A stretch of DNA of 64,000 nucleotides from an uncultured Alphaproteobacteria bacterium (GTDB lineage Bacteria; Pseudomonadota; Alphaproteobacteria; RF32; CAG-239). The notes under the pieces are model-generated. The model saw only the letters and a program-made list of their open reading frames with translations, was not told the origin of the DNA and ran no database searches. Shown piece after piece: positions 3,526 to 60,588 of this stretch; within the stretch, counting starts at the first letter, position 1; each line of letters starts with the position of its first letter. Location of the stretch: positions 125,268-189,267 of the forward strand of contig CAJUKS010000003.1 in NCBI GenBank assembly GCA_910587405.1, in the 5' to 3' direction. Made by a program: the position numbers and the translations under genes.

Positions 3526-3805
3526 AAAACGATCCTTTTTTTGTGACAGGTAAAGATACAATTTCATTTGATTCATTTAAAAAAATAAATTGTGGATTTC
3601 TAATGAGTTATGATTGTTTTCTAAACAAGAAAAATATAAAATAAAGTTGTCACAAAAAAAGGATCGTTTTTTTGATACACTTTTTATTTGTGTCAATAAC
3701 GGCATAACTTATTGATAATTTTAGAATTATCTTGAAATTTATGGGCAATTGCTGTACTCTTTGCCTGTATCAAAAAAACGATCGTTTAAATTTAAAAGGA
3801 AAGGA
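3526..3805. promoter_or_regulatory. Conserved 5' regulatory cassette of autotransporter paralogue 1: A7-GGATCG-T7 palindrome (3648-3680), inverted copy of its left arm (3530-3548) and proximal half-site TGTATCAAAAAAACGATCG (3767-3785)
   Basis: Same TGTATC-A7-GxxTCx-T7-GATACA element found upstream of the other two autotransporter paralogues. Confidence 0.5.
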
Positions 3806-6530
3806 ATGGGCTTTGACTGAAAAAAGATATCTCTTGTTATCTTGCGCAGCGTTTTTTTTCGGGATGACGGAAATGGCGGTTGCTGCGGATATTATAAATC
3901 AACATTATGCAGAAAAATCGAGCGGTACCTATGGTGTGGGCGGGGCATTGACTTTTGCGCCGCCGGAAGTTTCTTTGATAAAAGACTCTTCGTTTACAAA
4001 TAACAGGTCACTCATCGGCGGTGCCGTTGTCAGCCGAGGCCATATCACCTCCGTCAGCAACAGTATATTTCAGGGAAACACTTCCGAAACGGGTGGCGGC
4101 GGCGCTATTTACAGTCAGACGCTTCCCGGTCACGAAGATGTCAATTCCGGCGGAATTGATAAAATCAGCAACGTTCAGTTTTTAGGAAATTCGGCGGCCG
4201 GTTTCGGCGGCGCTGTTTTCCATCTCTCGCATCGGAATGTGTTGGTTGAAAATAGCATTTTTGAAGGCAATCACGGCGAGAAGGGCGGCGGCGCTTTCAA
4301 CAGCGGACAATATGAAGGGCAGGGCGCTGCCGTTACCATGGTTAATAACCAATTCCGAAACAATACTTCCGGCCGTGTCACCGACGGTACTTTCGGCGGC
4401 GGTGCCATAAGACTTGATTCGGGATCGGTTATTTTCAAAGGCAACAACGTTTTTGAAAATAATAAGGACCCTGAAAGAAACAATGACATCAATGTTCAAA
4501 GCGGTTCGGTGATTGTGGCCGAGTCGGCTGTGGTTACGCTGGACGGCGGCATTATCGGTAATGGTAACACCGTCATTGAAAAAGGCGGACAAATTAAAGT
4601 GGAAAACACGGCCAATGCCACCACTTTCGGCAATCAGACCGAAAACAATGGTACCATAACCGTCAACAAAGAAAAAGCAGCCGATGTTTTGGCCGAATTT
4701 ACCAACAACGGACAGATTGCCAATCAGGGAGATTTTGCCGTTCAGGGGACCGGAACGCTGGTTCTGAACCGGGGAATTGACGGAAGCGGTCGGACAACCG
4801 TCAGCGAAGGCGGGCGGCTTGTGGCCAATGCTGCCGGTGTGGCGATGCAAAATGCGTTAATCAACAACGGTACCGTTAATATTGATAAAGACAAAAGCCT
4901 GATCCTGAAACAGGACAGTGTCAATAACGGCACCATTGACAATAACGGACTTCTGGCCGTCAACAAATCTTTGCTTCTCCGCAGTTCGATCCAAGGCGAA
5001 GGGACAGTGTCGGTTAACAACGGCGCCATGCTTGATATTGCCGGAAAAGACGCCCAGGTTGCCAACAATATTGACAATCGCGGTATTTTGCGTGTCAGCG
5101 AGAATTCTCAACTGACGGCCGAACGGGAAATTGCCAACCACAAAGTTATTGTTAACCGCGGCGTCATCCATAACAACGGTGCCCTTTTGTTAAACGGCGG
5201 TTCATCGGTCGAAATGGGGACCGATGCGGTGTTCAATACCAAAGAACTCCGGGCTTCGGGGCTGCCGCAGTTGAAACTGAACGTTGAGACCGACACCGTC
5301 GCCGATACGATTCGTCACGGTATTATCAATGTGGACGGTGACGTTACGGGCAACACGGATGTTGTTTTGAAATTTACGGATGACAACCTGTTGACAAATC
5401 CCGAAACCGTCAAAAGCCTTTTCGTCAATGCGCCGCAGGACAATGCCGAAACTTCGGCCGCATTTAATGTGGTGCGGGTCGAAAAAAGTCCGTATATGTG
5501 GGTGGCTCAGTCCGAGGCCGGTGAAGGCGATCAGGGTACGGCCTGGTATCTGACGGTTAATACGCTGGTGCCGGAAACGCCGGATTCCCTGGTTGTGGCG
5601 CCGGAAGTCGTCGCGGCGGCCGGAATGCACGAAGCAGCGCTGGAACAGACGCGCAGCGTGCTTCGCAATTTGAACGGCAAGCTGGCTTCCGGACGGGAAT
5701 ATTGTCCGAATTGCGGCATATATTCGCAGGAGTGGGACGGACGTCCGTTGCATAATTTGTGGATTAGCGCCCAGGGCGAAACCGCCGGTATTGACAAGCC
5801 GGTTGACATGGATGCCGACATTTGGGGCGTGGAAGCCGGTTTTGACCTCCAAAACGACGTTAACAACACCTTTGGCGTTTTTGCTTCTTATCGCAACGGC
5901 GAGTACGATCTTTCGGGACGCGGTGCCAAATTGCATGCGCTTTCCGGCAGCAAAATTGATATCGACTCTTATCTGGCCGGTCTTTATTACCGTTACGACA
6001 AAAACATGAACTGGTTGTTTGCCGGCATATACGGCGGTATGCAGCGGGCAGACGTTAAAACGGACGACGGAATTGCCAAGTTTGACAGCGACGGCGTAGA
6101 ATTCGGCGCCGGGATAGAGGCCGGACATACTTTTGCTTTGAACAGTGATCTGACCCTGAGTCCGTCGCTGGGGATTTATTATACCCAGATTGATTTTGAT
6201 TCCGCTGCCGATAACGTTGGCAAAAGATATGACTGGAGTGACGTCAAACATCTGGAGGCCGAGTTTGGCATCAAGCTGGAAAAACAAATCGATACGGCGA
6301 AGATTTATGTAAAACCGAGCGTTATTCACACTTTAACCGATGATGACGAAGTAAAAATCAGCGGTTACGGCAAAGCCGACACTTATCACGATCAGACTTT
6401 GGGTCGGATAGAGTTGGGCGGCCGTTACGGTTTCAATGATGCGGTGTCGGGTTATGGCTGGACCAACTATACTTTTGGTTCGGGATATGACAACGTAACT
6501 TTGGGCGCCGGCCTGAGTTATGCCTGGTAA
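3806..6530 (+). CDS. Autotransporter (type Va) with Pmp-type GGAI/FxxN repeat passenger and C-terminal beta-barrel translocator; paralogue 1
   Basis: RBS aaaggaaagga before ATG 3806; signal peptide; repeated GGAIxN and FxGN motifs; C-terminal ~280 aa homologous to barrels of the two other paralogues; ends in W. Confidence 0.8.
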
Positions 6531-24221: not shown

Positions 24222-26420
24222 ATGGAAAATTTATTATCGGACGCCGAAATGAACGCCGTGATCGAAGGCAATCATGACAATGTTTTTGCCGTGCTCGGCA
24301 TTCACCGCGACAAAGGAAGCAAAAATGTGTTTATCCGCGCCTGGCAACCCCATGCCGGGTCGATTGAAGTGTTGGATCGGCAGGGAAATTCCTGCGGGAT
24401 GATGGATTGTCTTGATCAACGCGGTTTCTTTCAGATCAATCTCGGCGTCGGAGAAAATTTTTCTTATCGTTTCAAAATCGAAAATGACCGCGGCGAAGTT
24501 TATGAAGCGGAAGACACCTATCGTTTTCAGCCGACGCTGGGCGATATTGACATCTACTTGCTGGGCGAAGGAAACCACCTTGAGATGTATAAAAAGCTCG
24601 GCGCCCACGTTTGTGAACAGGACGGTGTAAAAGGCGTCAGCTTTGCCGTCTGGGCACCCAACGCCAAACGGGTTTCGGTGGTCGGAAACTTTAATAACTG
24701 GGACGGCCGCACCTGCGTGATGCGCAAATATCCGACCTGCGGGGTGTGGGACATTTTTATTCCCGGCCTCGGCGAAGGCGAAGTTTACAAATACGAAATC
24801 AAAACTCAGGAAAATTATATTTTGGTCAAGTCGGATCCGGTCGGCTTTTATGCCGAAAAAAGGCCGCAAAACGCTTCAATCGTTTATGACCTGAATCATT
24901 ATCACTGGAATGACGAAGAGTGGATGAGCCGTCCCGACCGTCACAGCCGTCTCAACGGACCGATGTCGATCTACGAGGTTCATGCCGGTTCGTGGCGCCG
25001 GAAAGGCGACGGCGGATCAGAATATCTCAGCTATCGCGAAATGGCCGATACGCTGGTTCCTTATGTTACCAACATGGGTTTTACGCACGTCGAATTTTTG
25101 CCGCTGGCCGAACATCCGCTGGATGCTTCGTGGGGCTATCAGGTCGTCGGTATGTTTGCGCCGACCAGCCGTTTCGGCACCCCCGACGATCTGCGTTATC
25201 TGATAGACAAGTTTCACCAGTCGGGGATTGCGGTGATCATGGACTGGGTTCCGGCCCACTTTCCGAAGGACGGCCACGGGTTGTGTGAATTTGACGGCAC
25301 CCACCTCTATGAGCACGCCGATCCGCGCAAAGGCGAACACAAAGACTGGGGAACCAAAATTTATAACTACGGCCGTACCGAAGTTTTTAACTATTTGTGC
25401 ACCAACGCCCTTTACTGGCTGAGGGAATATCACATTGACGGCCTGCGGGTGGACGCGGTGGCTTCGATGCTTTATCTCGATTATTCCCGCAATCCCGGCG
25501 AGTGGATTCCCAACATTTACGGCGGTAACGAAAATTTGGAAGCAATCGCCTTTCTGCGGCGAATGAACGAACTGGTTTATGGTTTGGACCGCGGCGCCTG
25601 TACCTGTGCCGAGGAGTCGACCGCATGGCCGATGGTTTCGCGCCCGACTTCGATGGGCGGTCTCGGGTTCGGTTATAAGTGGAATATGGGCTGGATGAAC
25701 GATACTCTGCGCTATATCGGCAAAGATCCGATCTATCGTCAATATCATCACGGCCTGCTTACGTTTGGTTTGCTCTATGCGTTTAACGAGAATTTTATCC
25801 TGCCGATTTCCCACGACGAAGTGGTTCACGGCAAGGGGTCGATGTTGTGTAAAATGCCGGGTGACGAGTGGCAGAAGTTTGCCAACCTGCGTGCCTATTA
25901 CGGCTTTATGTATACTCATCCCGGCAAGAAACTGCTGTTTATGGGGTGTGAGTTCGGTCAGGACTGGGAATGGAACTGCGACGAAAGTCTGCGCTGGCAT
26001 TTGTTGCAGTATCCGATGTATCAGGGAATACAAAATTGCGTGCGTGACCTCAACCTGATGTACAAGGGAAATGCGCCGCTGTATGAAGCCGATTTTGATT
26101 ATCGCGGTTTTGAATGGCTGGAACATGCCAATGCCGCCGACAGTGTTATCTCCTATATCCGCAAGGGCGAAACTCCGGGCGATTATTTGATTGTGATATG
26201 CAATTTTACGCCGGTGGTTCGTCCCGGCTATCGGATCGGGGTTCCCGAAGATTGCGGCTATCAGGAAATTTTTAACAGTGATGATAAAAACTATTGGGGC
26301 AGCGGGGTTAAAAACGACGGCGTCCGCGGTGCCGAACGGCAGGAGTGGAACGGCAAACCGTACTCGATACAGGTGACGCTGCCGGCGCTTTCGACGGTTG
26401 TTATCAAACCGGTGCGGTAA
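24222..26420 (+). CDS. glgB: 1,4-alpha-glucan branching enzyme
   Basis: 732 aa GH13; N-terminal CBM48, catalytic GLRVDAVASMLY region. Confidence 0.95.
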   Translation: MENLLSDAEMNAVIEGNHDNVFAVLGIHRDKGSKNVFIRAWQPHAGSIEVLDRQGNSCGMMDCLDQRGFFQINLGVGENFSYRFKIENDRGEVYEAEDTYRFQPTLGDIDIYLLGEGNHLEMYKKLGAHVCEQDGVKGVSFAVWAPNAKRVSVVGNFNNWDGRTCVMRKYPTCGVWDIFIPGLGEGEVYKYEIKTQENYILVKSDPVGFYAEKRPQNASIVYDLNHYHWNDEEWMSRPDRHSRLNGPMSIYEVHAGSWRRKGDGGSEYLSYREMADTLVPYVTNMGFTHVEFLPLAEHPLDASWGYQVVGMFAPTSRFGTPDDLRYLIDKFHQSGIAVIMDWVPAHFPKDGHGLCEFDGTHLYEHADPRKGEHKDWGTKIYNYGRTEVFNYLCTNALYWLREYHIDGLRVDAVASMLYLDYSRNPGEWIPNIYGGNENLEAIAFLRRMNELVYGLDRGACTCAEESTAWPMVSRPTSMGGLGFGYKWNMGWMNDTLRYIGKDPIYRQYHHGLLTFGLLYAFNENFILPISHDEVVHGKGSMLCKMPGDEWQKFANLRAYYGFMYTHPGKKLLFMGCEFGQDWEWNCDESLRWHLLQYPMYQGIQNCVRDLNLMYKGNAPLYEADFDYRGFEWLEHANAADSVISYIRKGETPGDYLIVICNFTPVVRPGYRIGVPEDCGYQEIFNSDDKNYWGSGVKNDGVRGAERQEWNGKPYSIQVTLPALSTVVIKPVR

Positions 26421-26446
26421 TATATTAAACGCCGGGAGAAACAAAA

Positions 26447-28522
26447 ATGAGCAATTTGAAAACGCAACCGGGAACTTCATATCCGCTGGGATCGGTTTTT
26501 GACGGAAAAGGGGTAAACTTTGCCCTTTTTTCCGCTCATGCTTCAAAAGTGGAATTGTGTTTGTTCAATAAAAGCGGAACCGAAGAGACCGACCGTATCG
26601 CCATTGAAAGCAATGATAACAATATTTGGCACGTGTATGTTGCCGGATTGAAACCGGGACAGATTTACGGTTACCGGGTATACGGACCTTACAAACCGGA
26701 AGAAGGGCATCGCTTCAATCCCAACAAACTGTTGTTTGATCCTTACGGAAAGAAGTTGAGCGGCAAGTTGATTTGGCATAAGGCGATTTTCGGTTACAAC
26801 CCCGACAGTCCGGACAAGGATTTGTCTTTTAACGAGTTGGACAGTGCGCCGTATGTACCCAAGTCGGTCGTGGTTGACGATCTTTACGATTGGGAAGGGG
26901 ACCGGCGACCCGGCTATGCTTTTAACGAAACAATTATTTATGAAGCGCATGTGCGCGGTTTTACCAAGCTGCATCCCGAAATTCCGGACCGTCGCCGCGG
27001 TACCTTTGCCGGCATGGGGTCGGAAGCGGTTGCCGGTTATCTTAAAGGGCTGGGCGTAACCGCGGTGGAATTGTTGCCGATCCATGCTTATTTCGGCAAC
27101 CGCCATCAAAAGGGTTTTCCCCGCAACAATTACTGGGGCTATGAGAGCAGCAGCTTTTTTGCGCCCGAACAGTCTTATTTGTCTTGCGACGATATCGACG
27201 AATTTAAAAATATGGTCAAGCTTTATCACCGGCACGGGTTGGAAGTGATACTTGACGTCGTTTACAATCATACCGGCGAGGGCAATCAGCTGGGACCGAC
27301 CCTTTGTTATCGCGGTATTGACAATGCCTCTTACTATACGCTCAATTCCGAAAACAAGCGATATTACTATGACAGTACCGGTTGCGGCGCTTCGATCAAT
27401 GCCGAAAACCCCTATGTGGTGCGTTTGATATTGGATTCGTTGCGTTATTGGACCGAAGTGATGCATGTTGACGGTTTTCGTTTTGATTTGACGACGGCAC
27501 TGTGCCGCAAGAAAACCAACTTCACCGCCGAATGCGGTTTTTTGTATGCCGTGCGCCAGGATCCGGTTTTAAAAGACGTAAAATTAATTGCCGAACCGTG
27601 GGATGTCGGTGCCGGGGGGTACCAGTTAGGGGCGTTTCCGCCCGGTTGGGGAGAATGGAACGACCGCTATCGTGACGTGGTGCGTCGTTTTTGGAAAGGC
27701 GATCAATATCAGACTGCCGAATTGGCGAGCCGCATTTCGGGTTCCAGTGATATTTTCAATTATCATAACCGCGATATCTGGAGCAGCGTCAATTTTGTAA
27801 CCGCCCACGACGGTTTCAGCTTAAACGATTTGGTCAGTTATAATCTCAAACACAACTCTGCCAACGGCGAGGACAATCGCGACGGCACCAACGCCAACTG
27901 GAGTTGGAACTCGGGGCAGGAGGGCGAGACCGATAATCAAACCGTGATCGAAAACCGCCGTTTGCGGATGAGGGCGATGATGGCAACGCTGCTGCTTTCG
28001 TTCGGTACTCCGATGATTTTTGCCGGTGACGAGTTTCTGCACCCGCAGTTGGGCAATAACAATCCGTATTGCCAGGATAATGTTTTGACCTGGTTGGCAT
28101 GGGAAGCGATTGATCAGCAGGGACGAGAGTTCACCCGCTTTGTCCGAAGCCTTGTCCGTTTGCGCCGCAAGCTGAAAATTTTTGATAAAAAGCATTTCTT
28201 CAGCGGCAAACACGGTCCGGACGGAATTAAGGATCTGACTTGGTATAACGAAACCGGCAAGGAATTTGTCGATGCGGACTGGTATGACGGCAGCCGCAAA
28301 TCGCTGTCTTATTGTATCCATCGCCGCGACCGCTTTATTTTGGGCATATTTAATGCCAACGACATCCGTCAGGCTTGGAAACTGCCGATGCTCGGCAAAG
28401 GCCTCAGTTGGAATTTGCTGCTGGACACTTCCGACAAATTTACCGCTCACAAAAACGTTCGTTCGGGAGCGGTGGTGGAAATTCCGGCATGGAGCGTATT
28501 ATTGTTTGAAATCAAAAAATAG
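26447..28522 (+). CDS. glgX: Glycogen debranching enzyme
   Basis: 691 aa GH13 isoamylase-type; N-terminal YPLGS...GVNFALFS. Confidence 0.9.
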   Translation: MSNLKTQPGTSYPLGSVFDGKGVNFALFSAHASKVELCLFNKSGTEETDRIAIESNDNNIWHVYVAGLKPGQIYGYRVYGPYKPEEGHRFNPNKLLFDPYGKKLSGKLIWHKAIFGYNPDSPDKDLSFNELDSAPYVPKSVVVDDLYDWEGDRRPGYAFNETIIYEAHVRGFTKLHPEIPDRRRGTFAGMGSEAVAGYLKGLGVTAVELLPIHAYFGNRHQKGFPRNNYWGYESSSFFAPEQSYLSCDDIDEFKNMVKLYHRHGLEVILDVVYNHTGEGNQLGPTLCYRGIDNASYYTLNSENKRYYYDSTGCGASINAENPYVVRLILDSLRYWTEVMHVDGFRFDLTTALCRKKTNFTAECGFLYAVRQDPVLKDVKLIAEPWDVGAGGYQLGAFPPGWGEWNDRYRDVVRRFWKGDQYQTAELASRISGSSDIFNYHNRDIWSSVNFVTAHDGFSLNDLVSYNLKHNSANGEDNRDGTNANWSWNSGQEGETDNQTVIENRRLRMRAMMATLLLSFGTPMIFAGDEFLHPQLGNNNPYCQDNVLTWLAWEAIDQQGREFTRFVRSLVRLRRKLKIFDKKHFFSGKHGPDGIKDLTWYNETGKEFVDADWYDGSRKSLSYCIHRRDRFILGIFNANDIRQAWKLPMLGKGLSWNLLLDTSDKFTAHKNVRSGAVVEIPAWSVLLFEIKK

Positions 28523-28533
28523 GGGAGAAGATT

Positions 28534-30681
28534 ATGGATGAAAAACTGCAACAGTTGGCGGACCGGCTCGGCATTGCGACCGCTTACACTGACGTCGGGT
28601 TAAAAACCGGCAGTCATCAGGTCAGCGAAGACACGGTGCGATTTTTTGCCGGGGTGCTGGGCTTTAAGGCCGCTGATGCCGGCGAAGTGACACGTTCGTT
28701 GCGGGCGTTGGACACTCGCCGTTGGCAAAATGTTTTGGAGCCGGTGTATGTGGTTTTGCAGAAGCACAAGGTTTTTGATGCGGTGGTTTCGGAAGCGGAA
28801 GCCGAGGGCGATTTCAGCCTGACGCTGACCAGCCGCCAGACCGGCGTTAAAAGCGATGTTTCCTTTGTTGTCCTCACGCTTCCCGAGAGTCGCGTTGTTG
28901 CCGGCAAAAAGTACCAAAAGTTGGAAATTGAAATTACTTCCGATGTTGAAATCGGTTACTATGATGCCGAGTTGACCACCGCCGGCGGTACCTTCGTCAC
29001 CTTGCTTGCGGTTGCGCCCGACAAATGTTACCGGCTGCCCGGCCTTGACGAAAAAAAGCTGTGGGGTTTCAGCGTTCAGTTGTATTCTTTGCGCAGCCGC
29101 CGTAATTGGGGAATCGGCGATTTTACCGATCTGTACGATTTTGTCGGTATGTGCGGCCGTTGCGGTGCCGATATCATCGGATTGAATCCCGTTAACGTCC
29201 TCGGGCATTGTTTTCCCGAAGAGGCCAGCCCGTACTCGTCGGTTAGCCGCCTGTTTCTGAATCCGATTTATATTGACGTCGAGAAAGTGCCGGAGTTTCG
29301 TCCTGAGGACCGTTACGCGGTTGAAGCGGAAATTGCCGAGCTCAATGCCTCGGAGACGATCGAGTACGGACGGGTCTATCCTCTCAAGATCAAAGTGCTG
29401 AAAATTTTATACCAACGCATGCTGCAAAATCCGGAAAGAATGCGCGAATTTGAAAAATTTTGCCGTTGCAAGGGCGAAAGTTTGGAAAATCTGGTTACTT
29501 TCCAAGCCTTGTACGAAGATAAATGGCAAACCCATTGGGGCGGTTGGCGCGCTTGGGAAAAAGAATTTCGCAAACCGACAACGGCCGCCGTAAAAAAATA
29601 TCGCAAAGAACAGGCCGAACGTCTCGACTTTTTCAAATTTTTGCAATTTGAAGCCGAGCGTCAACTATGCGCGGTTTCGGCCCATGTGAAGGATTCCGGA
29701 TTAAAGATCGGCATTTACCGCGACCTGCCGGTCGGTGTCGGCCGTGACAGTGCCGAGTTGTGGAGTGACGACGGGTTGTATTTGCGCGAGAGCGGTGCCG
29801 GAGCGCCGCCGGACATTTTCTTCCCCACCGGGCAAAAGTGGAATCTGGGCGCTTTTAATCCGTTTGAGTTAAAGGCCCGTGCTTATCAGCCGTTTATCAA
29901 AATTATCCGCGCGGCAGCAGAAGGCGCGGGCGCGTTGCGTTTGGACCATGTGATGAGTCTGATGCGCCTGTTTGTGATTCCCGAAGCCGCCGGGGCCGCC
30001 GGTACCTATATTATGTACAATTTCGAAGATATGCTGAACATCGTTGCGATCGAAAGTCACCTGAACCGTTGCATGATCGTCGGCGAAAGCATCGGTAATA
30101 TTCCGGAGGGCTTTCTGGACAAGATTGCGGCGCGCGGCATCATGTCGATGAGCGTTTTGTGGAGCGAGCGCTGGGACGCCGGCTGGGGGGATTTCAAGTC
30201 GCCGTATCAGTATCCCGAAAATGTGGTTACGTCAGTCGGCACCCATGACATGGCGCCGCTTAAGATGTGGTGGTTTGGTTATGACATTGCCCTCTCGCGT
30301 CAGCTGGGAATTATCGGCAGCGATCAGGAAATGGCTGATAATTATCATAAACGCGAAGCCGATCGTTGGAAACTGCTGAAAGCTTTGGATGAAAATCAGG
30401 TTTGGCCGGAAGACAACCGCCGTCACAGCGATTATCTGTTCGGCGAGGGGTATCCGGAAGGGTTGGAAGAAGCGGTTCATCGTTTTATGGCCCGCAGTTG
30501 TTCAAAAATCTTTTTGGTTCAGCCCGAGGACGTTTTTCAGGTTGACAAATTGCAAAACCTGCCGGGAACCGACCGCGACAAACATCCCAACTGGCGCCGC
30601 AAACTGCCGGTAAATCTCGAAGATATGGAAAATTCGTTGGCCTATTACCGTAATATTGCGGCAATCAAAAAAGAAAGATAA
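28534..30681 (+). CDS. malQ: 4-alpha-glucanotransferase (amylomaltase) with N-terminal extension
   Basis: 715 aa GH77; GDFTDLYDFV and LRLDHVM motifs. Confidence 0.9.
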   Translation: MDEKLQQLADRLGIATAYTDVGLKTGSHQVSEDTVRFFAGVLGFKAADAGEVTRSLRALDTRRWQNVLEPVYVVLQKHKVFDAVVSEAEAEGDFSLTLTSRQTGVKSDVSFVVLTLPESRVVAGKKYQKLEIEITSDVEIGYYDAELTTAGGTFVTLLAVAPDKCYRLPGLDEKKLWGFSVQLYSLRSRRNWGIGDFTDLYDFVGMCGRCGADIIGLNPVNVLGHCFPEEASPYSSVSRLFLNPIYIDVEKVPEFRPEDRYAVEAEIAELNASETIEYGRVYPLKIKVLKILYQRMLQNPERMREFEKFCRCKGESLENLVTFQALYEDKWQTHWGGWRAWEKEFRKPTTAAVKKYRKEQAERLDFFKFLQFEAERQLCAVSAHVKDSGLKIGIYRDLPVGVGRDSAELWSDDGLYLRESGAGAPPDIFFPTGQKWNLGAFNPFELKARAYQPFIKIIRAAAEGAGALRLDHVMSLMRLFVIPEAAGAAGTYIMYNFEDMLNIVAIESHLNRCMIVGESIGNIPEGFLDKIAARGIMSMSVLWSERWDAGWGDFKSPYQYPENVVTSVGTHDMAPLKMWWFGYDIALSRQLGIIGSDQEMADNYHKREADRWKLLKALDENQVWPEDNRRHSDYLFGEGYPEGLEEAVHRFMARSCSKIFLVQPEDVFQVDKLQNLPGTDRDKHPNWRRKLPVNLEDMENSLAYYRNIAAIKKER

Positions 30682-30709
30682 CTGTTAAAAAACGAATGGT
30701 TGCTTATAA

Positions 30710-30740
30710 AAAATTCCCCGATTTTCGGGGAATTTTTTTG
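30710..30740 (+). terminator. Rho-independent terminator aattccccg/cggggaatt + T7
   Basis: Perfect hairpin and T-run after malQ. Confidence 0.6.
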
Positions 30741-30756
30741 TATTTTTTAAAAAAGT

Positions 30757-30925
30757 GCATCAAAAAAAGGATCATTTTTTTGATACAGACAAATCGTACA
30801 ACAAAGGAGAATTAAATTCAAGAAGATTGTGAGATTATCAATAGGTTAGGAAAAAAACGAAAAAGCAGCAAAATGTATCAAAAAAATGATCGTTTAACGA
30901 TTGTAATTTAAAATTGAGGAATAAG
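30757..30925. promoter_or_regulatory. Conserved 5' cassette of autotransporter paralogue 2: palindrome ATCAAAAAAA-GGATCA-TTTTTTTGAT (30759-30784) plus proximal half-site TGTATCAAAAAAATGATCG (30874-30892)
   Basis: ~80 bp between the two elements is near-identical to locus 3. Confidence 0.55.
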
Positions 30926-33880
30926 ATGAGAAACACGAGACTATCGGCGGCGGTTCTGCTGCTGTCCGCCACTTTTCTGACTGCCCCGGCTGTAGGGCAG
31001 GTCTATACGCCGACTCTGGGCAACAACAGCGCTTTTACAATCAATCAAATTTCTGAAACCGATTATGACGAAACCAATCCGGAGATGTTTGTCGGTTATC
31101 GGCTGGACGGTGAGGGAAAACCGGTAAAAGATTTTTATCGTATCAATTTGCGCAGTGACAAAACCTATACGGTCGAATACAAAGACAAAGTAAATACACG
31201 AGAGGAGACCGGGGCCGAATTTACATTTGACGGCGGTGCTTTGTCGGTTGCTGACGGCGAAAATAACGGGAATATTGTCGGCGCTCTTTTTCGAAATAAC
31301 GTAACAAATGTACAATTGACCGGTACCGAGAAAAAAAATACAGTTACAGTCAGGGGCGGCGGGCTCTATAACGAAGGTGTGATTGAAAACCTGCAGGCCG
31401 ATTTTATCGGCAATAACGCGCATGCCCAAATTATTATTAAACAAGGTGACGGTCATGTCAGAGCTTATGGAGGAGCCATTTATAACAGCGGCTATATCGA
31501 AAATATAGAAGGCGACTTTATCGGCAACAAGGTTAATGCGGATTCAACTTTTTCTGGTGGCGGTAGTGCTGCAATATCGGCAGAAGGAGGTGCTGTTTAT
31601 AATGAAGGCTGGATAGACAACATTAAAGGCGATTTCATAAGTAATCAGGCCCGGTCGAGTGGGGGTGCAATTACAATTGCAAAAGAGGGATATATTGAAA
31701 AAATTGAAGCTGATTTTATCAATAACAGTACTTTCGGTTTAAACACTATAGGCGGTGCTATTTCCGTTAAAGGAGAAGTTAAAGAAATTTACGGCAATTT
31801 TATTAATAATACAACCACTGTCGACGGCGGTGCCATTGTTATTGTAAGTAACGGCAGTGATAACGGTACCGTCGGAAAGATCAGCGGCAATTTTATCGGC
31901 AACAATGTAAAAGGTTACCTTGGTTATTTACGCGGCGGCGCAATTGCCATCCGTCATGGGGACACCTCTCCGGTTATTGATGCCGACTTTATCAATAATT
32001 ATGCTGTTAATACCCGGGTGCTTTCCGGAGCCGATGCTCAGGCGCGTCCTGTTGCGACCGGCGGCGCAATAGATACGTCGGCTGATACGACCTTTGTTGC
32101 CGATAATGTCAATCATGTATTCAGCGGTAACTACACGCTGGATAAATTCGGAAAGGAATACAATGCGTTATTTGTAAATTCCAGTTTTAAACCGACCATA
32201 AGTTTCAATACCGCCCATAACGGACAATGGATTATTAATGACAGTATTAAAGGGGGACTTAACAGAGTTAGCAGTCTCAAATATGATAATCAGTACAATC
32301 TGTCATTTAGCGGAGACGGCAGCGGAACGATATGGATTAATAACGACATCATCAATGCCGACAGTATTAAGGTTGAGAACACAACCCTCCGTTTTGGCGC
32401 TTATCGGCATGATGACCAAACAGCCACCAACTGGAACGGCCACGGCCGGATTGTCAACGGTGTTAACGGGCGTGATCCGGTAACTTCGTTGTCACTGCTG
32501 AAATCAAATTTGGATTTGTTTAATCACTATCAGGATACGATTGAACTGAAAGATTATCTCGCGGCGAGCAGTTTTGTGCATTTGGACGTTGATGTGGAAA
32601 ATTTGAGTGCCGACATGCTAAAGGTTAACGGCGATGTGGCCGGTACCACCAAACTGATTCTTTATCCGAACTCCAATAAAGATATCCGCGGCCAGTCAAT
32701 TGTATTTGCAACGTCACAGAATGATACCACCGGCGATAAGTTCTCATTTGTCGTCTCGCGTGTTTATACCAGCCCGTATATGTTTGATGTTGTTTATCAT
32801 CAATTGGGGGAAGGGGAGAATCAATGGTCGTTGGTGATGAACGAAGAGGTTAATCCGGATGCGGATGAGAAACCGGATGTTCCCGAGGTTCCGGATATTC
32901 CTGTCAAGCCGACACCTGCGGTTGACTATCGCAAAGTGGCGCCGGAAGTGATTGCCTATCAGGGCTTGCCGGTAGCGGCGTTGGAACAGACCAAAGGCAT
33001 GATCGGCAACATCGGCCGCCAGGTTCAGAACGGACGCGTCAGTTGTGAGAAATGCGGCGTTAAGGATTACTACTGGAACGGCAAAGCTTATCACACTCTG
33101 TGGGCGAACGTGGTTTATCAAACTTCGGAAAACGAAGCGTTGGTTAATGTTGACGCCGACGTTTGGGGCATTGAAGCCGGCGGCGACTTGCAACATGATC
33201 TCAACAACAAGCTGGGATTGTTCGTATCTTATCGCAAAGGCAACTATGATATGAACGGTAAGGGTAAATACTATTACTCGACCGTCGGATCGGAAATCGA
33301 TATCGACAGCTATCTCGCCGGTTTGTACTACCGTTATGACCGTAACCACTGGTGGACTTTTGCCACCGTATACGGCGGCATTCAGAGAGTTGATCTGAAG
33401 ACCAAAGACGGCATCAAGTCGGATACCGACGGTACCGAGTTCGGCGGCAGCGTCGAGTTGGGTTATGACTATAACCTGTCTAAAACCCTGTACCTGACCC
33501 CGAGTGTGGGTGCCTTCTATACTCAACTCAATTACGGAGATGCGAGCGACAGCGCCGGTAAAACCGCTGAGTATGGTTTACTGCGCCAGTTGGAACTCGA
33601 AGCCGGGGTTAAACTGACGAAAGCGTTCGTAACGGACGAAGGCTATGCCAACGTTTATGTCAAACCGAGTGTTGTGCAAACCCTCAACGGCGGCGACGAA
33701 GTCAAAGTCAGCGGTCTGAGAGAAATCAACACTTTAGATGACCAGACGTTGGGCCGGATTGAACTCGGCGGCCGTTACGGCTTTACCGAACAGTTGTCGG
33801 CGTATGGCTGGGCCAACCACACCTTCGGCGACGACTATAAAGCCTCGACCTTCGGTCTCGGTTTAAGTTACAGTTGGTAG
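30926..33880 (+). CDS. Autotransporter with Pmp-type GGAI/FxxN repeats, Pro-rich linker and C-terminal beta-barrel; paralogue 2
   Basis: RBS gagga; signal peptide MRNTRLSAAVLLLSATFLTAP; many GGAIxN/FIGN repeats; barrel ~85-90% nt identical to paralogue 3. Confidence 0.8.
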   Translation: MRNTRLSAAVLLLSATFLTAPAVGQVYTPTLGNNSAFTINQISETDYDETNPEMFVGYRLDGEGKPVKDFYRINLRSDKTYTVEYKDKVNTREETGAEFTFDGGALSVADGENNGNIVGALFRNNVTNVQLTGTEKKNTVTVRGGGLYNEGVIENLQADFIGNNAHAQIIIKQGDGHVRAYGGAIYNSGYIENIEGDFIGNKVNADSTFSGGGSAAISAEGGAVYNEGWIDNIKGDFISNQARSSGGAITIAKEGYIEKIEADFINNSTFGLNTIGGAISVKGEVKEIYGNFINNTTTVDGGAIVIVSNGSDNGTVGKISGNFIGNNVKGYLGYLRGGAIAIRHGDTSPVIDADFINNYAVNTRVLSGADAQARPVATGGAIDTSADTTFVADNVNHVFSGNYTLDKFGKEYNALFVNSSFKPTISFNTAHNGQWIINDSIKGGLNRVSSLKYDNQYNLSFSGDGSGTIWINNDIINADSIKVENTTLRFGAYRHDDQTATNWNGHGRIVNGVNGRDPVTSLSLLKSNLDLFNHYQDTIELKDYLAASSFVHLDVDVENLSADMLKVNGDVAGTTKLILYPNSNKDIRGQSIVFATSQNDTTGDKFSFVVSRVYTSPYMFDVVYHQLGEGENQWSLVMNEEVNPDADEKPDVPEVPDIPVKPTPAVDYRKVAPEVIAYQGLPVAALEQTKGMIGNIGRQVQNGRVSCEKCGVKDYYWNGKAYHTLWANVVYQTSENEALVNVDADVWGIEAGGDLQHDLNNKLGLFVSYRKGNYDMNGKGKYYYSTVGSEIDIDSYLAGLYYRYDRNHWWTFATVYGGIQRVDLKTKDGIKSDTDGTEFGGSVELGYDYNLSKTLYLTPSVGAFYTQLNYGDASDSAGKTAEYGLLRQLELEAGVKLTKAFVTDEGYANVYVKPSVVQTLNGGDEVKVSGLREINTLDDQTLGRIELGGRYGFTEQLSAYGWANHTFGDDYKASTFGLGLSYSW

Positions 33881-57081: not shown

Positions 57082-57252
57082 CTGTATCAAAAAAAGGTTC
57101 GTTTTTTTGATACAGGCAAATCGTACAACAAAGAAGAATTAAATTCAAGAAGATTGTGAGATTATCAATAGGTTAGGAAAAGTCTTTCTGCATAATAAAT
57201 TGTATCAAAAAAACGAACGTTTAACGATTATAATTTAAAATTGAGGAATAAT
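57082..57252. promoter_or_regulatory. Conserved 5' cassette of autotransporter paralogue 3: 14-bp-arm palindrome CTGTATCAAAAAAA-GGTTCG-TTTTTTTGATACAG (57082-57115) plus proximal half-site TGTATCAAAAAAACGAACG (57201-57219); TATAAT at 57229-57234
   Basis: Near-identical to locus 2 cassette except GATC core replaced by GTTC/GAAC. Confidence 0.55.
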
Positions 57253-60200
57253 ATGAGAAAGACTAGACTATCGGCGGCGGTTCTGCTGCTGTCCGCCACT
57301 TTTTTAAGTACGCCGACAATTGCCGTTTCTTTAACGCCGACTTTGGGAGAAAACAGTACGTTTTCGTATAACGAAGGTTCGGCAGGTGATTATAACTTTA
57401 CATTAAAGGAAGCAGATGCAGACGGCAAACTCACGACCAAATATTATAAAGTTGATCTGAAACCGGAAATCTTTGCAACTTCTCCGCGCATTAGTTGGAC
57501 TGCGGTGAGCGAAGATCAAAAAGATGCTGCCGACGTGGTAGAAATCAAATTGCCGAACGATCAGACAAAGTATTTCAAATATGCGTATGTTAGTTTAACA
57601 GGTGATGAACTTGTACATAAAGAACCGCTAAATTTTGAAATTGAAAGTGTCGGTTCGACGGTCACCCAATCTGGCGGAACGGCGATTAATAATACAAGTG
57701 ATTATGGAAATTTAGAAGGTAAGGTATTTAGTGAAAATGAGGCCGTTGCGTTGGTTAAAAATGCCCGCTATTTCTACTTGCAAGGAGGATCTGTCTATAA
57801 CAGCGGCAGTTTTGGAAGTGTGGCGGCAGATTTCATCGGCAATTCTGTTGTAGTAAATGCTCAGAACGATGGGTATATGTATGCTCAAGGCGGAGCCATT
57901 TATAATGCCGGTCATATTGCTTCTGTTAACGGAGATTTTGCCGGCAACTTTGCCGATGATCGGGATACGGGAGTATATCTTCATAAACAGTCATATTCTC
58001 AAGGCGGTGCAATTTACAATGTTGGAACCATAGATGAAATGAATAGTAATTTTGTGGGAAATTATACTTCCAGTTCGGGATCAAGTTACTATTTTTATTC
58101 TCAAGGCGGTGCGATTTCCAACAGTGGGGTCATCGGAAACGTTGTAGGACATTTTATCGGAAATTATGCTTATGGTTCCAATACTTATTCCAACACCAGT
58201 TATTTTTCCGGGAGTCAGGGCGGTGCCATTTATAATACCAATACGATGGGTAATATTAGCGGTGATTTTATCGGCAACTATGCTTATAGTTCCGATCAAA
58301 GCGGCGAGTCCGGAGGCGGTGCCGTTTATAATACCGGTACGATCGGCAATATTAGCGGTGATTTTATCGGCAACTATGCTTATAGTTCCAATCCGGGCAG
58401 TACGGCTCGCGGTGGTGCGGTCAGTAACGGCAATAAGACGATCAACGGTATCTCTGGCAATTTTATCGGTAACTACGTTTATTCTGCAAATAGCGAAGCG
58501 GAAGGCGGTGCGATTTATAATGTTAATAGGAATCAGGCAGCTATAGGCGATATTAACGGCAGTTTTTTGAATAACTATGCGCAAACTTTGTCAGACAAAG
58601 AATTTGCTCTTGGCGGGGCGATTCATACAAATAATAATTTAACCTTTTTTTCTGACAAAAATACAAATTTTCTTTCCGGAAACTATACTCTGGATAAAAG
58701 AGGAAAAATCTATAATGCAATCTTTATTAATATCCCAAGAGAAGGTAAAAATGACAAAGCGCAGAATTTACTTACTTTGAAAACCGGCAATGAAGGAAAA
58801 ATAGTCATTAACGATAATATTGTCGGTGCTCATATAAATGACAAAAGCCTTGCAGAGGTAGGAATATCGTTTGGGGAGTATGCTTTGCCCTTTAACTTAA
58901 CACTTACCGGTGATGACACCATTGATGCGGATACGGGTACGACAACCCAGTATGTTGCAATCAATAATGATATTATCAATGCGGGAACGGTGACGGTTAA
59001 CGGTACCACCTTGCGTTTTGGCGCTTTTCAGCACGAAGACCGGACGGCCAAGAACTGGGACGGCAAAGGGGCTTTTGTTGCCTCGCTGAACGCCGACGGT
59101 ACCGCCAACCGCGACGCTGCCGCAGTGACGAGCTTGTCGTTGAATAACGGTGTGTTTGATATTGCCAACGGCTATCAGGAAACCGTCAAGCTGAAAGGCT
59201 ACTCGGCGACCGACAGCTTTATGCATATCGACGTTGATCCCGATAATATGAGCGCGGATATGTTGAATGTTAACGGCAATGTCGAAGGCGTCACCAAGCT
59301 GATTGTTCACGCTTCGTCTGATGCCGATATCCGCGGCAAGGGAGAAATTCTGTTTGCGCAATCGGAGAATGATACGACCGGTAACGCGGGTTCGTTCGTG
59401 GTCTCGCGTGTTTATAAGAGTCCGTATTTGTTTGATGTTAAATACAATCAAATTGCCGACAACAGCAACAAATGGTACTTTGAGATGAACGATCAGCCGA
59501 ATGAAGAACCAAAAGAACCGGAAAAGCCCGACGTTCCCGATGTTCCTGATGTTCCGACGCCGCCGACCCCGGAACTGCCGGATATTCCGCCGGTTAAGCC
59601 GCAGCCGTTGCCGGGCAGCGACCGTCCGGTAGCACCGGAAGTGATTGGCGCCGAATCTCTCCCCGCGGCTGGTTTGGCTCAGACCTCCAACATGATCTAC
59701 AACATCATGCAGAAAGTGTCTTCAAACCGTTTCTACTGCCCCGGTTGCGGTTTCTATGATTACTACTGGAACGGCGAAGCCTTCCACAATCTGTGGGCAA
59801 ACGCGGTTTACAATACGCTTCGCATCAAGACGCCGACCGATATCGACGCCGAGGTCTGGGGTTTAGAGGCCGGCGGCGACCTGCAGCATGATCTCAACAA
59901 CAAGCTGGGTCTGTTTTTGTCCTACCGCAAAGGTAATTACGACATGAACGGCGACGGCAAGCATCATTACTCGACGATCGGATCTGAGATTGACATTGAT
60001 TCGTATCTTGCCGGTCTGTATTACCGTTATGACCGTAACCACTGGTGGACTTTTGCCACCGTATACGGCGGCATTCAGAAAGTTGATCTGAAGACCAAAG
60101 ACGGCATCAAGTCGGATACCGACGGTACCGAGTTCGGCGGCAGCGTTGAGTTGGGTTATGACTATGCGATCAACAAAACCCTGTACCTGACCCCGAGTGT

Positions 60201-60573
60201 CGGCGCCTTCTATACTCAGGTTGATTACGACGACGCCACCGACAGTGCCGGCAAGGTTGCAAAGTACAACACCTTGCGTCAGCTGGAGTTGGAAGCCGGC
60301 GTCAAACTGACGAAAGCGTTTGTAACGGACGAAGGCTACGCCAACGTTTATGTCAAACCGAGTGTTGTCCGCACCATTACCGACGGTGACGAGGTTCGGA
60401 TCACCGGTTTGGACAAAGTCAACACTTTGGATGACCAGACGCTGGGCCGGGTTGAAATTGGCGGCCGTTACGGCTTTACCGAACAGTTGTCGGCCTATGG
60501 CTGGGCCAACCACACCTTCGGCGACGACTACAAAGCCTCGACCTTCGGTTTGGGTCTCAGTTACAATTGGTAG
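57253..60573 (+). CDS. Autotransporter with Pmp-type GGAI/FxxN repeats, Pro-rich linker and C-terminal beta-barrel; paralogue 3
   Basis: Signal peptide MRKTRLSAAVLLLSATFL (identical nt block to paralogue 2); >12 GGAIxN/FIGN repeats; barrel homologous to paralogues 1-2. Confidence 0.8.
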   Translation: MRKTRLSAAVLLLSATFLSTPTIAVSLTPTLGENSTFSYNEGSAGDYNFTLKEADADGKLTTKYYKVDLKPEIFATSPRISWTAVSEDQKDAADVVEIKLPNDQTKYFKYAYVSLTGDELVHKEPLNFEIESVGSTVTQSGGTAINNTSDYGNLEGKVFSENEAVALVKNARYFYLQGGSVYNSGSFGSVAADFIGNSVVVNAQNDGYMYAQGGAIYNAGHIASVNGDFAGNFADDRDTGVYLHKQSYSQGGAIYNVGTIDEMNSNFVGNYTSSSGSSYYFYSQGGAISNSGVIGNVVGHFIGNYAYGSNTYSNTSYFSGSQGGAIYNTNTMGNISGDFIGNYAYSSDQSGESGGGAVYNTGTIGNISGDFIGNYAYSSNPGSTARGGAVSNGNKTINGISGNFIGNYVYSANSEAEGGAIYNVNRNQAAIGDINGSFLNNYAQTLSDKEFALGGAIHTNNNLTFFSDKNTNFLSGNYTLDKRGKIYNAIFINIPREGKNDKAQNLLTLKTGNEGKIVINDNIVGAHINDKSLAEVGISFGEYALPFNLTLTGDDTIDADTGTTTQYVAINNDIINAGTVTVNGTTLRFGAFQHEDRTAKNWDGKGAFVASLNADGTANRDAAAVTSLSLNNGVFDIANGYQETVKLKGYSATDSFMHIDVDPDNMSADMLNVNGNVEGVTKLIVHASSDADIRGKGEILFAQSENDTTGNAGSFVVSRVYKSPYLFDVKYNQIADNSNKWYFEMNDQPNEEPKEPEKPDVPDVPDVPTPPTPELPDIPPVKPQPLPGSDRPVAPEVIGAESLPAAGLAQTSNMIYNIMQKVSSNRFYCPGCGFYDYYWNGEAFHNLWANAVYNTLRIKTPTDIDAEVWGLEAGGDLQHDLNNKLGLFLSYRKGNYDMNGDGKHHYSTIGSEIDIDSYLAGLYYRYDRNHWWTFATVYGGIQKVDLKTKDGIKSDTDGTEFGGSVELGYDYAINKTLYLTPSVGAFYTQVDYDDATDSAGKVAKYNTLRQLELEAGVKLTKAFVTDEGYANVYVKPSVVRTITDGDEVRITGLDKVNTLDDQTLGRVEIGGRYGFTEQLSAYGWANHTFGDDYKASTFGLGLSYNW
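58222..58410. repeat. Intragenic 96-bp tandem repeat (2 units) within passenger domain of paralogue 3
   Basis: 42-bp identical cores at 58252-58293 and 58348-58389. Confidence 0.6.
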
Positions 60574-60588
60574 TTCTGCTCCGTAACG

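What the first reader, a model, noticed from the sequence alone, without database searches (positions are those of the whole stretch)
33329..33453. Near-identical 125-bp patch between autotransporter paralogues 2 and 3 amid ~80-90% identical flanks, plus identical signal-peptide block: gene conversion
Segment 33329-33453 of paralogue 2 matches 60022-60146 of paralogue 3 with a single mismatch. The surrounding barrel-coding sequence differs at many synonymous sites. Likewise a 39-bp block encoding RLSAAVLLLSATF at the 5' end is identical (30938-30976 vs 57265-57303). Passenger domains are otherwise different in length and repeat content. A patchwork of identity like this is the signature of ongoing intragenomic recombination or gene conversion within a Pmp-like family. 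That provides a mechanism for antigenic or mosaic variation.
Basis: seen in the sequence. Interest (0 to 1): 0.6.

Follow-up and report, generated by a model that had tools for sequence, protein, structure and literature searches.

The report
Gene-conversion patches between autotransporter paralogues
Two surface-protein genes of an uncultured mouse-gut alphaproteobacterium share short near-identical stretches because pieces of one copy have been pasted into another, a well-known way for such gene families to evolve, and it is still happening among strains of this species.

Summary
Window 33329-33453 and 60022-60146 match at 124 of 125 bases, and the 39-base signal-peptide block is identical. 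Synonymous divergence between P2 and P3 is 0.04 in the patch and 0.83 just upstream. The run of 38 synonymously identical codons has permutation P about 1.5e-5.

Gene conversion is supported and its direction can be read. P2's positional orthologue (L104) carries a different patch. P3, a fourth paralogue of the same species (L081) and P3's orthologues in a sister clade carry the patch natively. P2 is therefore the recipient, with 19 consecutive P3-like informative sites at 33331-33470 (P<5e-6).

At the 5' end the direction reverses. P3 57090-57303 (leader plus signal peptide) is P2-type, while P3's orthologues carry another type.

The patch is not private to P2 and P3. Eleven paralogue copies from this species are 95-99% alike there. 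Orthologue comparisons show ordinary synonymous divergence there (pS 0.56-0.64), which excludes an RNA or codon-level constraint.

A conspecific strain identical over 13.3 kb differs from the window at 19 sites, all inside P3's barrel, so conversion is recent.

The tracts lie in the barrel and the leader/signal peptide, not in exposed passenger sequence, so antigenic variation is not shown. This is a new example of a known process.

The parts
30926..33880 (+). Autotransporter paralogue P2 (984 aa from ATG 30926; the ORF tool starts at TTG 30914). Its barrel has an 'A-type' backbone.
   Evidence: ORF listed. Pfam PF03797 matches residues 729-965. An identical 984-aa product was called in more than 10 conspecific assemblies. 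L104 is the positional orthologue, collinear over window 24932-33880 at 90.3%.
57253..60573 (+). Autotransporter paralogue P3 (1106 aa from ATG 57253). Its barrel is 'B-type' throughout.
   Evidence: Positional orthologues are L100/L101 (99.9%), L084-L086 (sister clade, flanks 94.7%) and L001 (UMGS149, flanks 91-93%).
3732..6530 (+). Autotransporter paralogue P1, a distant family member not involved in the patch.
   Evidence: The P1 barrel is about 65-72% identical to P2 in nucleotides, and the patch region is diverged. L060 is its positional orthologue.
33329..33471 (+). Converted tract in P2 (recipient). The informative-site run spans 33331-33470, bounded by orthologue-like sites at 33328 and 33473.
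   Evidence: 124/125 and 141/143 identical to P3. 19 consecutive sites where P2 = P3 and differs from L104; 0/200,000 permutations reach this. pS 0.04 in the patch against 0.83 upstream.
60022..60164 (+). Matching tract in P3, native B-type sequence and donor type.
   Evidence: P3 stays close to its own relatives here: L081 (P4) 123/125 and sister-clade orthologue L084 120/125. It is B-type on both sides of the tract.
33787..33851 (+). Second P3-like tract near the 3' end of P2 (equivalent to P3 60480-60544). A possible third short tract lies at 33617-33664.
   Evidence: Run of 11 consecutive P3-like informative sites. P2-P3 identity over 33737-33877 is 130/141, against 121/141 for P2-L104. 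Over 33617-33664 the figures are 46/48 against 42/48.
57090..57303 (+). Converted 5' tract in P3 (recipient), covering the upstream leader, ribosome-binding region, start codon and signal peptide. Sites at 57183-57214 remain orthologue-like.
   Evidence: P3 is P2-like here (runs of 26, 12 and 16 informative sites). It matches its own orthologue L084 before 57071 and after 57312. 0/100,000 permutations reach the longest run.
30763..30976 (+). Corresponding 5' module of P2 (donor type). This leader and signal-peptide type (MRNTRLSAAVLLLSATFL) is shared with P2's orthologue L104.
   Evidence: The other paralogues (P4/L102, L003, L030, L044, L082, L084, L001) carry a different signal peptide, MTKHTSLAIAL...
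60192..60420 (+). Segment of the P3 barrel that differs between conspecific strains. It holds 14 differences at 60192-60315 and 5 at 60412-60420.
   Evidence: L100 against the window shows 19 mismatches and 0 gaps in 13,331 nt, all inside this span.
30759..30784 (.). Palindromic box ATCAAAAAAAGGATCATTTTTTTGAT at the start of the conserved upstream leader. Copies also lie at 3651-3676 and 57086-57111.
   Evidence: Exactly three sites in the window, one upstream of each paralogue, with 0 expected by chance. It is conserved in paralogues of other genomes.

Best explanation
The patch is a gene-conversion tract. Homologous recombination between dispersed paralogues of one autotransporter family copied about 140 nt of a 'B-type' barrel sequence into P2, whose barrel is otherwise 'A-type'. 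P3, the fourth paralogue P4 and others carry the B-type sequence natively. One or two further short tracts near the 3' end of P2 have the same origin. They come either from separate events or from patchy mismatch repair of one longer heteroduplex.

At the other end of the genes the flow was opposite. About 210 nt of P2-type leader plus signal peptide replaced the native sequence in P3.

The patch covers the most conserved part of the barrel protein. I infer that this region keeps the long exact matches (58 and 66 nt here) that recombination needs, which makes it a preferred pairing site. The result is species-wide homogenisation of this segment across all paralogues, i.e. concerted evolution, while the passenger regions stay very different.

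Shown:
- Non-random clustering of identical sites.
- Discordance between tract and flanks.
- Polarity of both tracts, read from positional orthologues.
- Free synonymous change in the patch between lineages.
- Conversion-like clusters of differences segregating among strains.

Inferred:
- The exchange was intragenomic and RecA-type.
- Which copy was the donor.
- The role of mismatch repair.
For: 1. Clustering. The run of 38 synonymously identical codons has P = 3/200,000. pS is 0.04 in the patch and 0.83 upstream.

2. Polarity in the barrel. With P2 as child and L104 and P3 as parents there are 165 informative sites. 19 consecutive P3-like sites lie at 33331-33470, flanked by L104-like runs (0/200,000 permutations). 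A second run of 11 lies at 33787-33851. The nearest-neighbour map shows P3 is B-type throughout. P2 is A-type except in these tracts.

3. No nucleotide constraint. In the patch, orthologue pairs have pS 0.56 (P2-L104) and 0.64 (P3-L001), like their flanks. Distant family members are about 75% identical there. There is no Rfam hit, and RNA fold z-scores are -1.2 and -2.6 against -4.2 for the non-identical upstream flank. The antisense frame is not a conserved ORF.

4. Concerted evolution. Eleven paralogue copies from the species are 0.95-0.99 identical at 33338-33463 and 0.72-0.90 elsewhere. Species against outgroup is only 0.79-0.89 in that region.

5. The 5' tract. P3 is P2-like at 57110-57297 and orthologue-like outside (longest run 26 sites, 0/100,000).

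6. Recency. L100 matches the window over 13.3 kb except for 19 sites, all in the P3 barrel.

7. Reproducibility. The same P2 mosaic occurs in more than 10 assemblies from different samples at 99.5-99.995% identity.
Against: - The immediate donor cannot be named, because at least 8 copies carry the same patch.
- L082a/b share P2's left junction at 33329. The junction may therefore be inherited or spread as a unit rather than created in P2.
- Import from another strain by transfer, followed by allelic recombination, cannot be separated from intragenomic conversion for any single event.
- P2-L104 identity in the patch (0.856) is no lower than in the flanks (0.86). The argument therefore rests on informative-site polarity, not on a dip in orthologue identity.
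- All comparison sequences are metagenome assemblies. Hybrid contigs (L083, L095, L099, L102, L103) show that assemblies are unreliable around these repeats.
- The two UMGS149 paralogues are not homogenised in the patch (pS 0.64). Homogenisation is lineage-specific.
Confidence: 0.85

Rival explanations
1. Nucleotide-level functional constraint. An RNA element, an antisense gene or a codon-usage constraint within the barrel-coding sequence keeps the 125 nt identical in both paralogues.
For: The patch is the most conserved part of the barrel at protein level (many invariant columns between Y96 and S137). The antisense strand of the patch folds somewhat better than shuffles (z -2.6). Long antisense ORFs overlap both barrels.
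Against: Synonymous sites in the patch change freely between orthologues (pS 0.56-0.64) and between distant family members (about 75% nt identity). Rfam gives nothing at gathering threshold and only a chance-level miRNA match nearby. The sense-strand z-score is -1.2. The antisense frame has 0-8 stops depending on the copy, so no conserved ORF exists.
Confidence: 0.02
2. Assembly artefact. The identity arises from collapsed or chimeric assembly of repeated barrel sequence in a metagenome-derived genome.
For: Many MAG contigs break in or next to the barrel or patch (L097, L108, L109, L010, L017, L018, L027, L070, L072, L074). Several contigs join one paralogue's 5' context to another's 3' context, with the crossover at the patch (L095, L103).
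Against: The same P2 sequence with its own flanks on both sides is recovered in more than 10 independent assemblies. The same holds for P3 (L100, L101). A truly A-type patch would be about 14% different and would assemble separately rather than be overwritten. A long-read assembly of the same species (L081) carries the same patch in P4.
Confidence: 0.03
3. Import from another cell. The tracts entered by horizontal transfer of homologous autotransporter DNA from a co-resident strain or species, followed by recombination, rather than by exchange between copies in one chromosome.
For: Barrel segments are more alike between lineages than the genome background would predict in some comparisons and less alike in others (P3-L084 pS 0.11 in the patch, 0.45 upstream). 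At the L044 locus a lineage with 94% identical flanks (L107) carries a barrel of a different subtype. Inter-subspecies transfer shapes type Va adhesins in Fusobacterium (PMC10995627).
Against: A donor that is 99-100% identical exists in the same genome for both tracts (P3/P4 for the patch, P2 for the 5' block), so an external source is not needed. All paralogues of the species share the patch, as expected for repeated internal exchange.
Confidence: 0.1

Closest known systems
Concerted evolution of the 3' ends of Helicobacter pylori outer-membrane-protein paralogues (babA/babB, homA/homB) by intragenomic gene conversion
   Same: Dispersed paralogous surface-protein genes whose 3' (barrel-coding) segments are more alike within a strain than between strains. 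Chimeric genes occur and paralogues occupy alternative loci. The review PMC3960876 reports strong intrastrain similarity of the 3' segments, 'indicative of concerted evolution', citing Pride and Blaser 2002. It describes the conversion as most likely RecA-dependent.
   Different: The protein family and phylum differ (Hop/Hom proteins of an epsilonproteobacterium, against PF03797 type Va autotransporters of a gut alphaproteobacterium). Here the sharply homogenised core is short (about 140 nt) and shared by at least 8 copies. The 5' leader and signal peptide are also exchanged. Nothing has been tested experimentally.
Recombination-derived mosaicism of type Va autotransporter adhesins in Fusobacterium nucleatum (fap2, radD, cmpA)
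   Same: Large type Va autotransporter adhesin genes present in several copies, with mosaic structure detected by recombination analysis (PMC10995627).
   Different: That case mainly concerns exchange between subspecies and allelic lineages. Here the discordance is between paralogues at different loci of one genome, with polarity read from positional orthologues.
Chlamydial polymorphic membrane protein (Pmp) family
   Same: Multi-copy autotransporters whose passengers carry alternating GGA[ILV] and FxxN motifs. P2 and P3 each have 8 and 11.
   Different: The Pfam Chlam_PMP repeat model does not reach threshold in P2 or P3 and is sub-threshold in P1 (16.5 bits against a cut-off of 20.6). The organism is unrelated. 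This is a resemblance, not membership.
Programmed antigenic variation by cassette conversion (Neisseria pilE/pilS, Anaplasma msp2, Borrelia vlsE; recalled from general knowledge, not tested here)
   Same: Non-reciprocal copying of segments between related genes.
   Different: No silent, promoter-less donor cassettes are seen. Every paralogue examined has its own conserved leader, start codon and signal peptide. The mapped tracts lie in conserved, non-exposed parts rather than in the variable exposed part.

Membership tests
Type Va (classical) autotransporter | C-terminal autotransporter beta-barrel domain (Pfam PF03797) | tested here: met
   P1 scores 99.5 bits, P2 100.9 bits and P3 102.7 bits against a cut-off of 26, covering almost the whole 255-position profile.
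Type Va (classical) autotransporter | C-terminal aromatic residue of the barrel | tested here: met
   P2 ends ...GLSYSW, P3 ...GLSYNW and P1 ...GLSYAW.
Type Va (classical) autotransporter | N-terminal Sec signal peptide | not testable with these tools
   By eye, MRNTRLSAAVLLLSATFLTAPAVG shows basic residues, a hydrophobic core and small residues before the likely cleavage site. No signal-peptide predictor was available.
Chlamydial Pmp family | Repeated GGA[ILV] and FxxN motifs in the passenger | tested here: met
   P2 and P3 each have 8 GGA[ILV] and 11 FxxN motifs, alternating at about 30-38 residue spacing. P1 has 5 and 10.
Chlamydial Pmp family | Match to the Pfam Chlam_PMP repeat model (PF02415) at the curated threshold | tested here: not met
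   No hit for P2 or P3 at E<=0.01. P1 scores 16.5 bits against a cut-off of 20.6.
Interlocus gene conversion / concerted evolution | Identical sites clustered beyond chance, at synonymous positions | tested here: met
   Run of 38 codons, P = 3/200,000. pS 0.04 in the patch against 0.83 upstream.
Interlocus gene conversion / concerted evolution | In the tract, paralogues in one genome are closer to each other than to their positional orthologues, while the flanks show the opposite | tested here: met
   In the patch, P2-P3 is 124/125 and P2-L104 is 107/125. In the upstream flank, P2-P3 is 203/285 and P2-L104 is 245/285. The same holds for the 5' tract of P3 against L084.
Interlocus gene conversion / concerted evolution | Non-reciprocal: the donor keeps its own sequence | tested here: met
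   In the patch, P3 remains like its relatives (L081 123/125, L084 120/125). In the 5' block, P2 remains like its orthologue L104.
Interlocus gene conversion / concerted evolution | Dependence on the homologous recombination machinery (RecA) and an intragenomic donor | not testable with these tools
   The organism is uncultured and only assemblies are available.
Programmed antigenic-variation cassette system | One expression site plus silent donor cassettes, with tracts that change the exposed variable region | tested here: not met
   All paralogues have the conserved leader, a start codon and a signal peptide. The tracts map to the barrel (residues 802-843 of P2, inside the PF03797 match) and to the leader/signal peptide.

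The most novel reading that the evidence does not exclude
The homogenised ends (leader plus signal peptide at 5', barrel at 3') may act as recombination handles. They would let whole passenger domains, and even the chromosomal flanks, move between loci. This would give a commensal gut alphaproteobacterium a shuffling adhesin repertoire under common control through the palindromic leader box.

Hints:
- The passenger at the P3 locus is only 24-50% identical in protein between lineages whose flanks are 94.7% identical.
- Five contigs join the 5' context of one paralogue to the 3' context of another, with crossovers at the patch or in the last 90 nt of the gene.
- Synteny with L104 ends exactly at the P2 stop codon.

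All of these could also be assembly errors or ordinary divergence.
Probability: 0.2. Interest if true: 0.6.

Novelty: new member of a known kind. Interest (0 to 1): 0.35.

Why it matters
The case shows that an uncultured mouse-gut alphaproteobacterium keeps a family of at least eight large autotransporter genes in active sequence exchange. Both the direction of exchange and its recency can be read from public metagenomes.

There is a practical consequence. These repeats break or mis-join metagenome assemblies, so gene order and adhesin gene content around them should not be trusted in MAGs of this group.

Biologically it adds a commensal example to a process known mostly from pathogens. It does not show antigenic variation.

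Tried and rejected
- Exact look-up of P2 from the TTG start found nothing. Gene callers use ATG 30926, and the 984-aa product was later found as P0201.
- A search for a genome-independent conversion hot spot at the patch, using within-genome identity profiles in 10 multi-paralogue genomes, showed no common peak there. The homogenisation is lineage-specific.
- My first impression that the two UMGS149 paralogues are homogenised in the patch did not hold (pS 0.64).
- The Ffh protein search did not calibrate the distance to GCA_018263635 as intended. It did give P0081, which led to the sister-clade P3 loci.
- All-against-all BLAST of flanks was uninformative for calibration.
- The RNA-element idea was rejected: no Rfam hit and no unusual fold. 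The antisense ORF is not conserved.
- A metagenome scan for P2's specific left-junction flank gave 0 hits. The scan for the patch core gave 5 more copies, two at contig ends.
- The Dam/GATC phase-switch analogy for the leader boxes is weak. GATC is present in both P2 boxes (30770, 30888) but absent from both P3 boxes.
Full report
**What is there**

The window carries three + strand genes for large autotransporters.
- P1: 3732-6530.
- P2: 30926-33880 (the ORF tool starts at TTG 30914).
- P3: 57253-60573.

All three end in a Pfam PF03797 autotransporter beta-domain (99.5-102.7 bits against a cut-off of 26) and a terminal tryptophan. The P2 and P3 passengers each carry 8 GGA[ILV] and 11 FxxN motifs. 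The Pfam Chlam_PMP model does not reach threshold, so 'Pmp-like' is a resemblance only. P2 and P3 are 48% identical as proteins overall: 20-60% in the passenger and about 88% in the last 279 residues.

**The observation**

Window 33329-33453 and 60022-60146 match at 124 of 125 bases. The mismatch is at 33387 (Arg/Lys). Window 30938-30976 equals 57265-57303.

The contrast is at synonymous sites. Both the patch and the 55 codons before it are 90-100% identical as protein, yet pS is 0.04 in the patch and 0.83 upstream. Among 220 codons that could differ synonymously, 65 do. The longest run without such a difference is 38 codons (33329-33451), and only 3 of 200,000 permutations reach that. The tract really extends to 33471 (141/143). 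A 9-nt cluster of differences follows (33473-33481), then more near-identity.

**Where the window comes from**

Relatives of the barrel are all from gut Alphaproteobacteria MAGs, deposited as 'uncultured Azospirillum sp.' or 'Alphaproteobacteria bacterium'. Looking up the window's own neighbouring proteins gave many assemblies 99.5-99.995% identical to the window over 12-22 kb, several from mouse gut samples:
- L087-L098 at the P2 locus.
- L100 and L101 at the P3 locus.

Further reference points:
- A sister clade with flanks 94.7% identical (L083-L086, P3 locus).
- UMGS149, with flanks 91-93% identical. L001 is the positional orthologue of P3 and L060 that of P1.
- A human-gut contig, L104. 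It is collinear with window 24932-33880 at 90.3% and is the positional orthologue of P2.
- The long-read assembly GCA_018263635 (L081) belongs to the window's species. Its upstream flank is 98.9% identical to L102, and L102's downstream flank is identical to the window beyond the P3 stop codon. L081 carries a fourth paralogue, P4, at another locus.
- MGBC103387 (L002-L004, L030) is the same or a very close species. The L002 flank is 97.7% identical to L095.

**Direction of the barrel tract**

The barrel sequences fall into two types upstream of the patch.
- A-type encodes ...QTSENEALVNVDADVWGI... (P2, L104, L001, L005, L082).
- B-type encodes ...NTLRIKTPTDIDAEVWGL... (P3, P4/L081, L083-85, L002, L003).

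A sliding nearest-neighbour map shows P3 is B-type along its whole barrel. P2 is A-type except at 33329-33471, 33617-33664 and about 33737-33877, where its nearest neighbour is P3.

I ran a triplet test with P2 as child and L104 and P3 as parents. It gave 165 informative sites:
- 19 consecutive P3-like sites at 33331-33470, bracketed by L104-like runs. No permutation out of 200,000 reached this.
- A second run of 11 at 33787-33851.

In the patch P3 stays close to its own relatives (L081 123/125, L084 120/125), whereas P2 departs from its orthologue (107/125). P2 is therefore the recipient and a B-type paralogue the donor. Which B-type copy cannot be said.

**Not a private exchange, and not a constraint**

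The patch sequence is present at 95-99% identity in P4, in two copies on L082, and in L002, L003, L004 and L030. Across eleven paralogue copies from this species, mean pairwise identity is 0.95-0.99 at 33338-33463 and 0.72-0.90 elsewhere. Identity between these copies and the outgroup copies (L104, L001, L005) is only 0.79-0.89 in that region, with no peak.

Orthologue pairs show ordinary synonymous divergence inside the patch: P2-L104 pS 0.56 and P3-L001 pS 0.64. More distant family members are about 75% identical there. This rules out a constraint on the nucleotides themselves.

Consistent with that:
- Rfam finds nothing in the region.
- The sense strand of the patch folds no better than shuffles (z -1.2), while the non-identical upstream flank folds better (z -4.2).
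- The antisense frame that looks open in P2 and P3 has 0-8 stops in other copies.

The homogenisation is lineage-specific. A profile across ten multi-paralogue genomes shows no common hot spot, and the two UMGS149 paralogues are not homogenised in the patch (pS 0.64).

**The 5' block**

The identical 39 nt are the right-hand end of a longer similar stretch (30751-30976 against 57078-57303, 89% over 228 nt). Alone they would not be significant.

Alignment with orthologues makes the case. P3's positional orthologues (L084, L086, L001) and most other paralogues start with a different ribosome-binding region and signal peptide (MTKHTSLAIAL...). The window's P3 has the type shared by P2 and P2's orthologue L104 (MRNTRLSAAVLLLSATFL). 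From 57304 onward P3 is again like its own orthologues.

In the triplet test P3 is orthologue-like up to 57071 and P2-like at 57110-57297, apart from eight sites at 57183-57214. It is orthologue-like again after 57312. The longest P2-like run is 26 sites, and no permutation out of 100,000 reached it. At this end P3 is the recipient and the P2 type the donor.

**Recency**

L100 carries P3 between its normal flanks. It is identical to the window over 13,331 nt except for 19 substitutions, all inside the P3 barrel: 14 at 60192-60315 and 5 at 60412-60420. Part of the first cluster matches P4-type states. L101 and L103 share the second cluster. These are the expected traces of recent conversion events segregating within the species.

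**Mechanism**

The best reading is homologous recombination between dispersed paralogues, with non-reciprocal copying. The patch covers the most conserved part of the barrel protein (many invariant columns between Y96 and S137). I infer that this region retains long exact matches, 58 and 66 nt between P2 and P3, and so is the preferred place for pairing. That reinforces its identity.

The interrupted pattern in P2 fits either several events or patchy mismatch repair of one heteroduplex. These steps are inferred. RecA dependence and an intragenomic donor cannot be tested here.

The mapped tracts lie in the barrel (P2 residues 802-843, inside the PF03797 match) and in the leader and cleaved signal peptide. 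They do not alter exposed passenger sequence, so antigenic variation is not demonstrated.

**Comparison with known cases**

The closest described case is the concerted evolution of the 3' ends of H. pylori babA/babB and homA/homB. There the 3' segments show strong intrastrain similarity, and the conversion is described as most likely RecA-dependent intragenomic recombination producing chimeras (PMC3960876). Mosaic type Va adhesin genes are also described in Fusobacterium (PMC10995627).

Classical cassette systems differ. Here every copy has its own leader, start codon and signal peptide. This is a new example of a known process in an unstudied group.

**Caveats**

- All comparison sequences are metagenome assemblies.
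- Contigs often end in or next to the patch (L097, L108, L109 and others).
- Five contigs join one paralogue's 5' context to another's 3' context. The crossover is at the patch in L095 and L103, and in the last 90 nt of the gene in L099 and L102. L083 is the fifth. These may be real rearrangements or assembly chimeras.
- The P2 and P3 mosaics themselves are reproduced with their own flanks in many independent assemblies.

Noticed in passing
window 3651-3676, 30759-30784, 57086-57111; second box 30877-30898 and 57204-57225: A palindromic box ATCAAAAAAAGG(A/T)TC(A/G)TTTTTTTGAT occurs exactly three times in the window, each about 140-170 nt upstream of an autotransporter start (0 expected by chance). 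It opens a leader of about 140 nt conserved in most paralogues of the family in several genomes. A second box, ATCAAAAAAA(T/C)GA(T/A)CGTTTAAC, lies just before the ribosome-binding region. GATC is present in both P2 boxes but in neither P3 box. It looks like a shared operator; the function is unknown.
   Followed up: partly
L083 13858-17187; L095 7162-9810; L099 10868-14023; L102 10868-14254; L103 10868-13270: These contigs join the upstream context of one paralogue to the downstream context of another. Examples are P4's upstream genes followed by P3's DEAD-box flank in L102, and P3's upstream genes followed by P4's L25p/Pth/YchF flank in L083. In L095 and L103 the crossover is at or inside the patch. 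In L099 and L102 it is at 60480-60500. Whether these are real chromosomal rearrangements or assembly chimeras is unresolved.
   Followed up: partly
window 57253-58900 against L084 13858-15500: At the same locus, with flanks 94.7% identical, the first 550 residues or so of the passenger are only 24-50% identical between the window and the sister clade. This is far more than point divergence would give. It suggests replacement of the passenger region.
   Followed up: partly
window 33880/33881 against L104 8961: Collinearity between the window and L104 (90.3% over 8.96 kb) stops exactly at the P2 stop codon. The downstream genes differ: a 672-aa glycosyltransferase and ClpB in the window, against a 309-aa glycosyltransferase, DUF2155 and MlaD in L104.
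   Followed up: no
L107 8448-9237 against L044 4001-4780: Two lineages whose flanks are 94% identical carry barrels of different subtypes at what looks like the same locus. L107 has a B-type barrel with the exact 44-nt patch core. The L044 barrel is only 58% identical to P2 as protein.
   Followed up: partly
L082 1850-2689 (-) and 9905-10738 (+): One contig carries two inverted, nearly identical autotransporter 3' halves. Both share P2's A-type upstream segment and the same A/B junction at the position equivalent to 33329, and both are B-type downstream. The contig has many frameshift-like breaks and is probably a long-read assembly.
   Followed up: partly
window 32744-33526 (-) and 59863-60654 (-): Long antisense ORFs overlap both barrels in the same relative frame. 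The frame has 0-8 stops in other family members, so it is most likely a by-product of codon composition.
   Followed up: yes
window 30708-30738: A strong terminator-like hairpin (14 pairs followed by a T run) lies just after malQ and immediately before the conserved autotransporter leader. P2 is therefore probably transcribed from its own promoter.
   Followed up: no
window 21990-22072 (-) and 40941-41014 (+): Two tRNA genes are the only Rfam matches in the window at gathering threshold.
   Followed up: no
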